From: a virus
Lineage: Duplodnaviria; Heunggongvirae; Uroviricota; Caudoviricetes
Reading direction: 5' to 3' (one strand)
DNA length: 21,659 nt
Virus record (IMG/VR): IMGVR_UViG_2541047437_000015
Numbering within the stretch: the stretch's first letter is position 1; the number at the start of each line of letters is the position of its first letter. The position numbers and the translations under genes were made by a program. Of the stretch, positions 5,734 to 7,652 are shown piece by piece. A model generated the notes under the pieces. It had not been told where the DNA came from. It saw only the letters and a list, made by a program, of their open reading frames with translations, and searched no databases.

Positions 5734-5760
5734 ATCCCTGAAACCTTCGGTTTACGGGAT
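5734..5760. other. gix-like recombination site A (gin-proximal): ATCCCTGAAACC-TTC-GGTTTACGGGAT, 12-bp half-sites with an atypical 3-bp spacer
   Basis: Imperfect palindrome read directly. The inside half GGTTTACGGGA is identical to the inside half of site B. It resembles Mu gix TTCCTGTAAACC-GA-GGTTTTGGATAA as I remember it. Confidence 0.6.
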
Positions 5761-6105
5761 ACTGTAAACAGGGCCGCGAATGCCCTGCCATCGAACGGAG
5801 CGGCTGTTGCAGCGAATAAACTCGCCACTCCAAGAAATATTAATGGTGTCCCATTTGACGGAACGCAGGATATAAATATTACATCGGGGATGACGCAGTC
5901 TGTGGCTGACTCACGTTATGTTCAAAGCATTCGAAGAGGTTCAAGGTCAACGATTGGAATGCAATATAATATTTTTGAGGTTCCTGACGGATGCGTACTT
6001 ACAGGGCTTGATGTCGCTGGTGATGGTAATGCAACGGTAACCGCATATTATCGACCTGTTCAGTTTCTGATAGATGGTTCGTGGAAAACAGCTTCCAGCG
6101 CATAA
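5749..6105 (+). other. Silent alternative tail-fibre C-terminal cassette (S'-variable arm); in frame from the gix core, no start codon of its own
   Basis: Translation from 5749 reads GLRDTVNRAANALPSNGAAVAANKLATPRNINGVPFDGTQDINITSGMTQSVADSRYVQS...YYRPVQFLIDGSWKTASSA, paralleling the C-terminus of the expressed fibre (GLRETVNKAADALPSGGTAVAANRLATPRNINGVPFDGTLDINITSGMTQSTADGRYVQ...YYRPVQIYINNAWRTVSSV). Track ORF 5890..6105 is its 3' part. Confidence 0.7.
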
Positions 6106-6184
6106 AAGTGCAGTAGTTCAAAAAACAGATTATCTGAATAAATATATGATGATTTTGTCTTTTCAACAAAAACAAGGTGAAATA

Positions 6185-6706
6185 ATGGAGCTTATTAACG
6201 TAAAACGATATTACCCGGAACACAAACCCTATGGTGAGGATGTTCAGTATTTCCAGAGTGAGGACGGAAGGGATTTTTATGAATCTATCCCGCTTTTCAC
6301 AAAGAAATACAAACTCTGTATTTCGCCTGTAACGGGTATTATCTGCTCTGTTGCTGAAGATGTCTCTGCTTTATATCCGGCAGGTTTTACTGTTGTTGAA
6401 GTGGACGAACTGCCGGAAGGTGTGAATATTGACGGTAACTGGCAGTTTTCTGATGGCCTGATATCAAAGGTGCCGGTAAACTGGAAGACGGTTGCTGAAA
6501 AGCGCCGCTCATCGCTGCTCCAGGAAGCCAACGAAACTGTGGATGACTGGAAAACGGAATTAAAACTGGACATGATTAGCGATGAAAATAAATTACAGCT
6601 GACGCGCTGGATGGCGTATATCCGACAGCTTAAAGAAATGCACTTTAATGATATTGCCAGTGAGGGGCATTACCAGGCGATTCCCTGGCCGGAAAAACCG
6701 GAATAA
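6185..6706 (+). CDS. Tail-fibre assembly protein (Tfa / Mu U'-like chaperone) belonging to the silent cassette
   Basis: 173 aa from ATG 6185 (AAGGTGA RBS). The C-terminal half has the pattern I associate with lambda-type Tfa proteins. It immediately follows the plus-strand fibre cassette. Track ORF 6074..6706 is over-extended at the 5' end. Confidence 0.75.
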   Translation: MELINVKRYYPEHKPYGEDVQYFQSEDGRDFYESIPLFTKKYKLCISPVTGIICSVAEDVSALYPAGFTVVEVDELPEGVNIDGNWQFSDGLISKVPVNWKTVAEKRRSSLLQEANETVDDWKTELKLDMISDENKLQLTRWMAYIRQLKEMHFNDIASEGHYQAIPWPEKPE

Positions 6707-6711
6707 TTCAG

Positions 6712-6736
6712 AGGGTGCATTCAGCACCCTTTTCTG
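6712..6736. terminator. Bidirectional terminator-like hairpin (AGGGTGC-attca-GCACCCT followed by TTTTCTG) between convergent Tfa and tail-fibre genes
   Basis: Perfect 7-bp stem located between the Tfa stop (6706) and the fibre stop (6741); T-rich on the plus side. Confidence 0.5.
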
Positions 6737-6740
6737 TGGT

Positions 6741-7652
6741 TTACACTGAACTTACCGTTCTCCAGGCATTATTAATATAAATCTGAACCGGGCGATAATA
6801 GACCCCACCGATATTGTCCGCAGACCGGGAGCCGGTTTCCTGCACGTTAATTCCGGAAAGCATACAACCGGAAGGTGCGCTGTAATTCCATGACATTTCA
6901 TTGCCTCCGGGTGAATGATAGCTCTGTGCTCCAAGCTGAACATTCTGTACATACCGGCCATCTGCGGTTGACTGCGTCATTCCTGACGTGATGTTGATAT
7001 CCAGCGTTCCGTCAAAAGGAACACCATTAATATTTCTTGGGGTGGCGAGTCTGTTTGCTGCCACGGCGGTTCCACCCGATGGCAGGGCATCAGCAGCCTT
7101 ATTTACCGTTTCCCGTAAACCAACGTTATCGATAAAAGCGCCTTTATCCGGAATGTCTGCGCCGTTCTGCTCCCTGCGCAGGTAACGGTTATCACCTTCG
7201 CTTTTGCTGTAAACATCCAGATTATTACGGGCGGTTCCCGCATTCTCCAGGTCGGCAAGGTTCTGATCCTTCGCCAGAGCATTAACGTCACCGGGACCAA
7301 GACTGTTTTTTGTGGCAAGCGCCCCAAGACCAAGATAACCACGGGCAAGACGCTGGGCTTCCGCACCGGCATCAGCAATTTCTTTCAGGTTGTTTTTCCG
7401 GGAAAAGGCATTCGCAGCGATAATGGCTTTAATGGACAGCGTAAGCTGGTTTAACTGCGCCTTATCCGGCTGAATACTGGCTTCAGCCAGAATATTCAGC
7501 AGTTCGGCCTGGAGAATATTCAGCCAGTCCTGACCAATCCAGCTGATACCTTTTTGTCCGTCACCTTCGGTAAACCAGGTGGTGGTATTACTCTGCGCCG
7601 GTGCCAGCGCAGGCATATTCGCCACGCCGGAATTATTATCAACATGGAACAT
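6741..7652 (-). CDS. Tail fibre protein (Mu S-like), currently expressed form: constant N-terminal part fused to variable arm B
   Basis: 303 aa from ATG 7652 (GAGGAG RBS; TAATG overlap with the upstream gene stop). The track's 7706 start overlaps the upstream gene and is less likely. gix-like site B lies inside the gene at the constant/variable junction. Confidence 0.8.
   Translation of the reverse strand: MFHVDNNSGVANMPALAPAQSNTTTWFTEGDGQKGISWIGQDWLNILQAELLNILAEASIQPDKAQLNQLTLSIKAIIAANAFSRKNNLKEIADAGAEAQRLARGYLGLGALATKNSLGPGDVNALAKDQNLADLENAGTARNNLDVYSKSEGDNRYLRREQNGADIPDKGAFIDNVGLRETVNKAADALPSGGTAVAANRLATPRNINGVPFDGTLDINITSGMTQSTADGRYVQNVQLGAQSYHSPGGNEMSWNYSAPSGCMLSGINVQETGSRSADNIGGVYYRPVQIYINNAWRTVSSV
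7110..7135. other. gix-like recombination site B (inside the tail-fibre gene): TTCCCGTAAACC-AA-CGTTATCGATAA, 26 bp with a 2-bp core
   Basis: Half-sites end in AAACC and AACG flanking a central AA, matching the hix/gix architecture. The site encodes IDNVGLRE at the constant/variable junction of the fibre. Confidence 0.65.

What the first reader, a model, noticed from the sequence alone, without database searches (positions are those of the whole stretch)
5747..7123. Asymmetric invertible fibre segment with only one tail-fibre assembly gene
Mu's G segment carries two complete modules (Sv-U and S'v-U'). Here the segment holds two homologous fibre C-terminal arms but a single Tfa gene (6185-6706), which belongs to the silent plus-strand arm. 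The arm now fused to the constant fibre region (6741-7121, minus) has no chaperone gene downstream; only 35 bp and a hairpin separate its stop from the convergent Tfa stop. Either the current fibre folds without a dedicated chaperone, or Tfa is expressed independently of segment orientation, or the current orientation yields defective fibres.
Basis: seen in the sequence. Interest (0 to 1): 0.7.

Follow-up and report, generated by a model that had tools for sequence, protein, structure and literature searches.

The report
Invertible phage fibre switch, one chaperone
A Mu-like prophage of pathogenic E. coli carries a small flip-flop DNA segment that swaps the tip of its tail fibre, and unlike phage Mu it has only one fibre-folding helper gene, which most likely serves both tips and has its own promoter.

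Summary
Window 5746-7123 is a 1.38-kb Gin-type invertible segment of an Sp18-like (Mu-like) prophage of EHEC. It holds two homologous fibre C-terminal arms and one Tfa gene (6185-6706), with no Tfa on the other strand. The segment really flips: about 182 complete E. coli genomes carry the window orientation and about 23 the inverse, with an identical 1,373-bp interior.

The single-Tfa layout is a conserved design, not a recent deletion. Every Sp18-like relative has it, even where Tfa is only 61-64% identical.

The "chaperone-less" arm is under strong purifying selection (dN/dS 0.05-0.15). Its tip is the type that normally sits directly upstream of this Tfa family in P2-like, lambdoid and other phages. 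The same Tfa class occurs with several different tip classes.

Published Sakai array data show Tfa and the silent arm co-regulated as their own unit, apart from the fibre gene. An invertase-less lineage also keeps Tfa convergent to the fibre.

Best reading: one promiscuous Tfa serves both arms and is transcribed independently of orientation. Separately, this copy has a 1-bp insertion in the left crossover site and is probably locked. This is a new variant of a known kind, of moderate interest.

The parts
5119..5679 (-). Gin/Pin-type serine DNA invertase, 186 aa
   Evidence: Pfam Resolvase 1.4e-51 plus HTH_7 1.7e-14. 75% identical to SfMu Gin. Annotated as DNA-invertase ECs_4992 in Sakai.
5734..5760 (.). 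Left (invertase-side) crossover site ATCCCTGAAACC-TTC-GGTTTACGGGAT. It has a 3-nt spacer instead of the 2-nt core found in relatives.
   Evidence: Relatives have ...AAACC-TC-GG... or ...AAACC-TT-GG.... The TTC form occurs in 36 genomes, all in the window orientation.
5749..6105 (+). Silent alternative fibre C-terminal arm ('arm B', tip class T0). The reading frame is open from 5680 but has no start codon before 5890.
   Evidence: In inverted isolates it is fused to the constant part, giving a 295-aa fibre (WP_032213164.1).
6106..6184 (+). 79-nt spacer, 75% A+T, between the arm B stop and the Tfa start
   Evidence: The spacer is 50-121 nt in all Sp18-like loci, against 5-17 nt in non-invertible relatives. 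Only weak -10-like hexamers are present.
6185..6706 (+). The single tail fibre assembly protein (Tfa, Mu U homologue), 173 aa
   Evidence: Caudo_TAP 1.9e-18; PHROG 136 1e-57; 5yvq_B 2.3e-15.
6710..6732 (.). Hairpin between the convergent stop codons. It is terminator-like on the + strand (followed by a T-run) and weaker on the - strand.
   Evidence: A hairpin at this position is present in all alleles, in two sequence types.
6741..7121 (-). Currently expressed variable arm ('arm A', tip class T1)
   Evidence: The tip is homologous to Mu S residues 435-503. dN/dS is 0.05-0.15 between alleles.
7110..7135 (.). Right (fibre-side) crossover site TTATCGATAACG-TT-GGTTTACGGGAA, lying inside the fibre gene
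7124..7652 (-). Constant N-terminal part of the fibre (Mu S 1-198 homologue)
   Evidence: 5yvq_A domain E 3e-43; PHROG 1833.

Best explanation
This is a minimal Gin-type host-range switch of an Sp18-like (Mu-like) prophage. The invertase (5679-5119) recombines two gix-like sites. One lies inside the fibre gene and the other next to the invertase gene. Inversion joins the constant fibre N-terminus (Mu S-like) to one of two short homologous C-terminal arms.

The segment carries one Tfa (Mu U-like) instead of two, and that Tfa serves both arms. It is a promiscuous chaperone for this tip family. It does not depend on read-through from the late fibre operon.

- In the inverted orientation, Tfa lies downstream of the fibre gene.
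- In the window orientation, Tfa is convergent to the fibre gene and is transcribed, together with the orphan arm, from a promoter of its own on the Tfa strand.

What is shown: the anatomy, natural inversion, conservation of the one-Tfa design, purifying selection on both the arm and Tfa, and separate transcriptional behaviour of orphan arm plus Tfa in a lysogen.

What is inferred: that Tfa physically chaperones arm A, the position of the promoter, and its activity during lytic growth.

In this particular copy, the left site has a 1-bp insertion between its half-sites. The segment is therefore probably frozen in the present orientation.
For: 1. The segment flips in nature. 182 records have the window orientation in one piece and 23 have the synthetic inverse. 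The interior is 100% identical in the window, in Sakai and in FORC_044, where it is the reverse complement.

2. One Tfa between two arms is found in every Sp18-like locus. This covers 6 E. coli genome loci and about 40 IMG/VR loci, with Tfa identity from 100% down to 61% and with five tip classes.

3. Tfa is not tied to its neighbouring arm.
- Class F0 sits beside tip T0 or T5, which are 44% identical to each other.
- Class F1 sits beside T3 or T5, which are 32% identical.
- The convergent arm is T1 or T2 with F0, F1 or F2.
So Tfa already tolerates tips as different from each other as arm A is from arm B (41%).

4. In about 50 non-invertible loci, Tfa homologues (53-59% identical) start 5-17 nt after fibres whose tips resemble arm A. 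Rac-SA53 is an example: its tip is 64% identical to A and 38% to B, and its Tfa is 53% identical.

5. A-like tips in SfMu, P2-like phages, Rac-SA53, Avunavirus 19-1-2 and Certrevirus POP15 are each followed by a Caudo_TAP gene.

6. Arm A has dN/dS 0.05-0.15 at dS 0.8 to more than 2. Tfa has dN/dS 0.05-0.25.

7. A lineage with one shared deletion scar has lost the invertase, the left site and most of the adjacent arm. It keeps an intact Tfa convergent to the fibre, with two different fibre tips.

8. Sakai time-course arrays (PMC2241611). ECs4990 (Tfa) runs -1.08 to +1.31 and ECs4991 (orphan arm) runs -0.93 to +1.06, with the same shape. ECs4989 (fibre), ECs4993 and ECs4986 behave differently.

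9. The TTC-site variant, all 36 copies in the window orientation, sits at three or more different insertion sites in different serogroups. This shows continued mobility.
Against: - No convincing sigma-70 promoter was found upstream of Tfa or in the orphan arm.
- The array signal comes from a lysogen entering stationary phase, not from lytic growth. The orientation of that culture was not measured and is assumed from the reference assembly.
- In the invertase-less lineage, the region that should hold an arm-internal promoter is deleted. Tfa divergence there (dS 0.1-0.4) exceeds that of the scar (about 3%), so recombination may have imported alleles. This weakens the selection argument.
- No binding or folding data exist for arm A with this Tfa.
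- Counts of orientations across genomes are not phylogenetically independent.
Confidence: 0.6

Rival explanations
1. Tfa serves only the adjacent arm B. The arm A fibre folds without a chaperone encoded in the segment, either on its own or with Tfa proteins supplied in trans by the many other prophages of EHEC strains.
For: Tfa is positionally linked to arm B and is antisense to the late operon in the window orientation. No clear promoter was found. EHEC genomes carry many lambdoid and P2-like prophages with Tfa genes of the same family. I recall from North et al. 2019 that Tfa proteins can cross-complement; I did not check this here.
Against: Every homologous tip examined elsewhere has its own Tfa immediately downstream. 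The invertase-less lineage, fixed with an A-position fibre, keeps Tfa intact. Tfa and the orphan arm are transcribed as a separate unit in Sakai. The nearest Tfa relatives partner with A-like tips.
Confidence: 0.2
2. The window orientation is an OFF or defective state. Without co-transcribed Tfa the fibre misfolds, so only the inverted orientation gives infectious particles.
For: This follows the Mu logic, in which each arm needs its own cis-encoded U. Tfa is convergent in this orientation.
Against: - Arm A is under strong purifying selection.
- About 88% of genomes are in this orientation.
- The fixed-A deletion lineage persists and diversifies.
- The TTC variant is seen only in this orientation, yet sits at three or more insertion sites in O26, O103 and the window strain.
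- Sp18 DNA is packaged in Sakai, whose assembly is in this orientation (PMC2669165).
Confidence: 0.08
3. The asymmetry is decay. A second Tfa was recently lost and the switch is a degenerating remnant of a G-like segment with no current function.
For: The window copy has a damaged left crossover site. Mixed cores (TC/TT) exist. Some relatives have lost the invertase.
Against: The one-Tfa layout is shared by alleles whose Tfa dS is saturated. Both orientations are found in each allele group. There is no Tfa relic on the other strand. The arms, Tfa and invertase are all intact and constrained.
Confidence: 0.07

Closest known systems
Phage Mu G segment with Gin (S-U / S'-U'); likewise SfMu, and from memory P1 C/Cin and e14 P/Pin
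   Same: The same kind of switch.
- The serine invertase is 75% identical to SfMu Gin.
- The 26-bp gix-like sites match: Mu, from memory, has TTATCCAAAACC-TC-GGTTTACAGGAA, and here the site is TTATCGATAACG-TC/TT-GGTTTACGGGAA.
- The crossover falls at the same place in the fibre gene (FI.N.GL.ETVN).
- The constant part is homologous to Mu S 1-198, the tips to Mu S 435-503, and Tfa to Mu U.
   Different: The segment is 1.38 kb rather than about 3 kb. The variable arms are about 120 aa, essentially tip only with no shaft. There is one Tfa rather than two, so the chaperone is convergent to the fibre in one orientation. A 50-121-nt spacer precedes Tfa, in place of tight coupling.
Sp18, the Mu-like prophage of E. 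coli O157:H7 Sakai (ECs4989-ECs4992)
   Same: Essentially the same element. The segment interior is identical and the flanks differ by 1 nt. [quoted passage not shown]
   Different: Sakai has matched TT/TT cores. The window copy has a 1-bp insertion in the left site and sits in a lambdoid gpJ gene rather than at the Sakai locus. In the papers I could read, the single-Tfa asymmetry and its consequences were not discussed.
P2-like gpH-gpG, Rac-type and other fixed fibre-Tfa pairs
   Same: The same tip fold family (...SADNIGGVYY(K/R)..QIYING.WR...) and the same Tfa family, at 53-59% identity.
   Different: There is no inversion. Tfa lies 5-17 nt downstream on the same strand.

Membership tests
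Gin/Hin/Cin/Pin-type invertible segment | Small serine recombinase (resolvase catalytic domain plus C-terminal HTH) encoded next to the segment | tested here: met
   Pfam Resolvase 1.4e-51 and HTH_7 1.7e-14; 75% identical to SfMu Gin.
Gin/Hin/Cin/Pin-type invertible segment | Two inverted 26-bp crossover sites (12-2-12) bounding the segment | tested here: met
   Sites at 5734-5760 and 7110-7135. They are the only two in the window. Inverted isolates break exactly there.
Gin/Hin/Cin/Pin-type invertible segment | Identical 2-bp cores in both sites, needed for productive inversion (established for Hin/Gin; from my own knowledge) | tested here: not met
   In this copy the left site has TTC, a 3-nt spacer, and the right has TT. 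Relatives have TC/TC or TT/TT. The opposite orientation was seen only with matched cores.
Gin/Hin/Cin/Pin-type invertible segment | Both orientations occur in nature | tested here: met
   182 versus 23 E. coli records. Both orientations also occur among the IMG/VR loci.
Gin/Hin/Cin/Pin-type invertible segment | Fis-dependent enhancer in the 5' part of the invertase gene | tested here: inconclusive
   A degenerate Fis pattern gave no hit in 5480-5700. The 5' region is conserved with SfMu gin at the DNA level, but the enhancer could not be delimited.
Mu G-type host-range module (S-U / S'-U') | Constant fibre 5' part fused alternately to two C-terminal arms | tested here: met
   303-aa and 295-aa fibres in the two orientations; homology to Mu S.
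Mu G-type host-range module (S-U / S'-U') | Each arm followed by its own Tfa (U and U') | tested here: not met
   There is one Caudo_TAP gene only, and none among the minus-strand ORFs. The same holds in all Sp18-like relatives.
Caudo_TAP / Mu U tail fibre assembly proteins | Sequence membership in the family | tested here: met
   PF02413 at 67.3 bits against a cut-off of 22.1; 5yvq_B at 2.3e-15.
Caudo_TAP / Mu U tail fibre assembly proteins | Binds and promotes trimerisation of the fibre tip | not testable with these tools
   This needs co-expression and pull-down experiments or multimer modelling.

The most novel reading that the evidence does not exclude
The chaperone has been uncoupled from the switch. 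A single, broadly tolerant Tfa is carried inside the invertible segment as an autonomous, growth-phase-regulated transcription unit together with the orphan arm. A 1.4-kb cassette can therefore present many interchangeable tips, with five classes seen, without a matched chaperone for each. A bolder version holds that in the window orientation the orphan tip domain, which begins with its own ATG at 5890, is also made with Tfa and has a role of its own.
Probability: 0.45. Interest if true: 0.55.

Novelty: new variant of a known kind. Interest (0 to 1): 0.4.

Why it matters
The usual rule for phage fibres is that each tip travels with its own assembly chaperone. That rule limits how freely receptor-binding tips can be swapped, both in nature and in engineered phages or tailocins.

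Here a compact natural switch appears to use one chaperone for at least five tip classes. It also keeps the chaperone gene antisense to the fibre operon in its commonest state. If confirmed, this would provide three things:
- a promiscuous Tfa for fibre engineering;
- a minimal host-range switch;
- a clear case in which chaperone expression must be independent of the late operon.

The core-site variants (TC/TC, TC/TT, TT/TT, TTC/TT) found in hundreds of EHEC genomes are also a natural experiment on core matching in serine invertases. The element itself, Sp18, and its invertibility are already known, so the advance is incremental.

Tried and rejected
- A second Tfa on the minus strand: none. 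The shadow ORFs of 98, 74 and 44 aa match nothing.
- A larger or multi-site (Min-like) inversion system: only two sites exist in the window, and natural inversions break at exactly those sites.
- Promoter search upstream of Tfa. The consensus scan found nothing in 5700-6185 on the + strand. A relaxed scan gives only weak -10-like hexamers in each spacer type. A TTGACG-16-TATTAC match at 5855-5882 and an ATA/ATC codon difference between adjacent and convergent arms are noted but not convincing.
- Covariation of Tfa with either arm: none, because classes are shuffled.
- Two scans of genome contigs for Tfa relatives gave nothing useful, so the taxonomic spread outside E. coli and IMG/VR was not established.
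- Fis-site pattern for the enhancer: no hit in the invertase 5' region.
- The Sandmeier p15B/Min paper could not be read, so precedent for unequal numbers of Tfa genes in Min-type regions was not checked.
- Structure prediction was not run. Only monomers are offered, and a monomer would not test the Tfa-tip pairing.
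Full report
**What is there**

The window is a Mu-like prophage of enterohaemorrhagic E. coli. Region 5000-7800 is 100% identical to chromosomes of many O157:H7, O26, O103 and O145 strains. It corresponds to prophage Sp18 of O157:H7 Sakai, genes ECs4989-ECs4992.

The late tail operon runs on the minus strand, with these genes:
- baseplate J, 9288-8203;
- gp48/YmfQ, 8212-7652;
- a 303-aa fibre, 7652-6741.

Downstream on the same strand lie a Gin-type serine invertase (5679-5119; Resolvase plus HTH_7) and a 679-aa DUF6645/SASA-esterase protein (5019-2980).

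Between the fibre and the invertase, on the plus strand, are two features:
- a startless fibre C-terminal arm, 5746-6105;
- one Tfa, 6185-6706, matching Caudo_TAP at 1.9e-18, PHROG 136 at 1e-57 and Mu U 5yvq_B at 2e-15.

The arms form a 185-nt inverted repeat that is 77% complementary. Each arm starts at a gix-like site. No Tfa-like ORF exists on the minus strand, and no further crossover sites exist in the window. The 34 nt between the convergent stop codons hold a hairpin.

**It is a working switch**

I built the inverted version of 5000-7800 and searched complete E. coli genomes. 23 records carry it in one piece at up to 99.9% identity. 182 carry the window orientation.

The 1,373-bp interior (5749-7121) is 100% identical in the window, in Sakai and, as reverse complement, in strain FORC_044. 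The flanks differ by 1-5 nt. The recombination points are therefore exactly the two cores, which excludes a larger segment.

In the inverted state the annotated fibre is 295 aa and Tfa follows it on the same strand. [quoted passage not shown]

**Relation to Mu**

- Fibre residues 1-198 match Mu S 1-191 (domain E 3e-43).
- The crossover falls in the same FI.N.GL.ETVN motif.
- The tip (229-302) matches the Mu S tip, 435-503.

The Sp18 fibre is thus a shortened S. Its constant part is joined almost directly to a tip domain of about 75 aa. The segment is a minimal G segment with one U gene instead of two.

**The one-Tfa design is conserved, not a recent loss**

All six diverged E. coli loci I fetched have the order arm, Tfa, then a convergent arm, with a single Tfa.

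A scan of IMG/VR with the Tfa returned 80 loci. I mapped these by tblastn and classified them. About 40 are Sp18-like, and every one has a single Tfa. This holds even where Tfa is only 61-64% identical to the window's, with synonymous sites saturated.

Both orientations occur within each allele group. The same Tfa family also occurs in ordinary two-Tfa segments (L073, L085, L089), so the symmetric design exists among relatives.

**Whose chaperone is it?**

The link between Tfa and the silent arm is positional only.

- In about 50 non-invertible loci (P2-like, lambdoid and others), Tfa homologues of 53-59% identity start 5-17 nt after fibres whose tips are 57-75% identical to arm A. Those tips are only 33-40% identical to arm B. 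Rac-SA53 is an example: its tip is 64% identical to A and 38% to B, and its Tfa is 53% identical.
- A tblastn search of phage genomes with the arm A tip found P2-like gpH, SfMu S', Rac-SA53, Avunavirus and Certrevirus fibres. In each one I inspected, a Caudo_TAP gene follows immediately. This tip family is normally chaperone-dependent.
- Within Sp18-like loci, Tfa classes and tip classes are shuffled:
  - F0 lies beside T0 or T5, which are 44% identical to each other.
  - F1 lies beside T3 or T5, which are 32% identical.
  - The convergent arm is T1 or T2 with F0, F1 or F2.

  A given Tfa therefore already copes with tips as different from each other as arm A is from arm B (41%).
- All tips share the C-terminal signature YY(R/K)..Q....(N/G).W.(T/S)..(S/G).

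**Is the 'chaperone-less' arm functional?**

Between alleles, arm A shows dN/dS of 0.05-0.15 at dS of 0.8 to more than 2. This holds in both its repeat part and its tip. Tfa shows 0.05-0.25.

About 88% of assembled genomes are in the arm A orientation.

One lineage (L021-L026, L030) shares a single deletion scar. The deletion removed the invertase, the left site and most of the adjacent arm. What remains is a fibre with an A-position tip and an intact Tfa convergent to it, which amounts to a natural orientation-locked derivative. The lineage has since diversified and carries two different tips and two hairpin types.

There is a caveat. Tfa divergence within this lineage exceeds that of the scar, so some alleles may have been imported by recombination.

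**Is Tfa expressed when it is convergent?**

Promoter scans were not convincing. Two observations still point to independent expression.

First, the gap between the adjacent arm's stop codon and the Tfa start is 50-121 nt in every Sp18-like locus. In all non-invertible relatives it is 5-17 nt.

Second, a published O157 Sakai growth time course on 70-mer arrays (PMC2241611) lists ECs4990 (Tfa) and ECs4991 (orphan arm) together as induced about 2.1 at the transition to stationary phase. The supplement gives the profiles:

| Gene | Product | Profile |
|---|---|---|
| ECs4990 | Tfa | -1.08 rising to +1.31 |
| ECs4991 | orphan arm | -0.93 rising to +1.06, nearly the same shape |
| ECs4989 | fibre | almost flat, -0.45 to +0.46 |
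| ECs4993 | DUF6645 protein | flat |
| ECs4986 | hypothetical protein (GP46-family protein in PGAP-annotated relatives) | a different trend |

The Sakai assembly is in the window orientation. So orphan arm plus Tfa behave as a transcription unit of their own, with a start upstream of the ECs4991 probe. There are caveats. The culture's orientation was not measured. The condition was a lysogen, not lytic growth. In the deletion lineage, the arm-internal region is missing.

**State of this particular copy**

Relatives have 12-2-12 sites with matched cores: TC/TC in most, and TT/TT in Sakai. The window has ...AAACC-TTC-GG... on the left and TT on the right. That is a 1-bp insertion relative to Sakai.

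Junction 40-mers gave these counts among E. coli genomes. 'A' is the window orientation and 'B' is the inverse.

| Junction | A (window orientation) | B (inverse) |
|---|---|---|
| left TC | 89 | 22 |
| left TT | 24 | 2 |
| left TTC | 36 | 0 |
| right TT | 87 | 2 |
| right TC | 103 | not resolved |

Some genomes combine left TC with right TT. An example is strain 95NR1, where the two sites lie 1,371 bp apart.

The inverted orientation was seen only with matched cores. This agrees with the established rule for Hin and Gin that the central dinucleotides must match (my own knowledge). The counts are not phylogenetically independent.

The TTC variant sits at three or more insertion sites:
- a lambdoid gpJ gene in the window;
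- a portal gene of another prophage in O26 strain RM10386;
- yoaF in O103 strain RM8385 and in strain 2013C-4225.

It has therefore stayed mobile while being seen only in the arm A orientation. This argues again that this orientation is functional.

**Verdict**

The finding is real. It is best explained as a minimal Gin-type host-range switch in which one promiscuous Tfa serves both alternative tips and is expressed independently of orientation (confidence about 0.6).

The rivals are these:
- arm A needs no cis-encoded chaperone, or borrows one from another prophage (about 0.2);
- the window orientation is an OFF state (about 0.08);
- the asymmetry is simple decay (about 0.07).

The element and its invertibility are known. 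The single shared chaperone, its apparent autonomy and the locked site variants are a new variant of a known kind, of moderate interest.

Noticed in passing
window 5734-5760 and 7110-7135; loci L001-L009: The crossover cores are polymorphic among otherwise near-identical prophages: TC/TC, TC/TT, TT/TT and TTC/TT. The window has the TTC form, a 1-bp insertion between half-sites. The inverted orientation was found only with matched cores. PGAP flags an antisense 'hypothetical protein' across the left site as frameshifted in TTC genomes.
   Followed up: partly
window 1-732 / 733: The first 732 nt are a lambdoid host-specificity gene J. The Mu-like prophage end lies at 732/733, so this copy is inserted inside another prophage. 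No complete E. coli genome in the collection shares this junction. mom (861-1598) and com follow.
   Followed up: partly
window 2980-5019 (-): A 679-aa protein with a SASA/SGNH carbohydrate-esterase domain and DUF6645 sits between the invertase and com/mom, where Mu has nothing comparable. It is present in all Sp18-like relatives at 60-100% identity, including the invertase-less lineage. It may be a tail-associated O-antigen or sialate deacetylase.
   Followed up: no
L021-L026, L030 (IMG/VR), e.g. L023 3697-4000: This lineage has one shared deletion scar running from the invertase 3' end to the last ~20 codons of the adjacent arm. What remains is the fibre and a convergent Tfa, with no invertase.
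   Followed up: yes
L003, L031, L032: 120-121-nt spacer before Tfa: The spacer of T5-type cassettes contains a relic of an older tip C-terminus (...LINGSWRTAGSA*). This suggests arms are replaced by inserting a new tip cassette upstream of the old end.
   Followed up: no
window 5866-5885 vs 7000-7020, and the same place in L003-L041: In the shared DINIT motif, the arms adjacent to Tfa use the rare Ile codon ATA (GATATAAA) in most alleles, while the convergent arms use ATC (GATATCAA) in all eight examined. In the window this lies within a TTGACG-16-TATTAC promoter-like match. This is unexplained.
   Followed up: no
whole window: The degenerate Fis-like pattern GNNNRWWWWWYNNNC occurs 30 times, against 9.0 +/- 2.9 in shuffles. 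None lies in the invertase 5' region.
   Followed up: no
window 5890-6105 (+): The orphan arm has an in-frame ATG exactly at the start of its tip domain, and is annotated as a 67-71-aa 'tail fiber protein' (ECs4991). It is co-regulated with Tfa in Sakai arrays. Whether a free tip domain is made is unknown.
   Followed up: no
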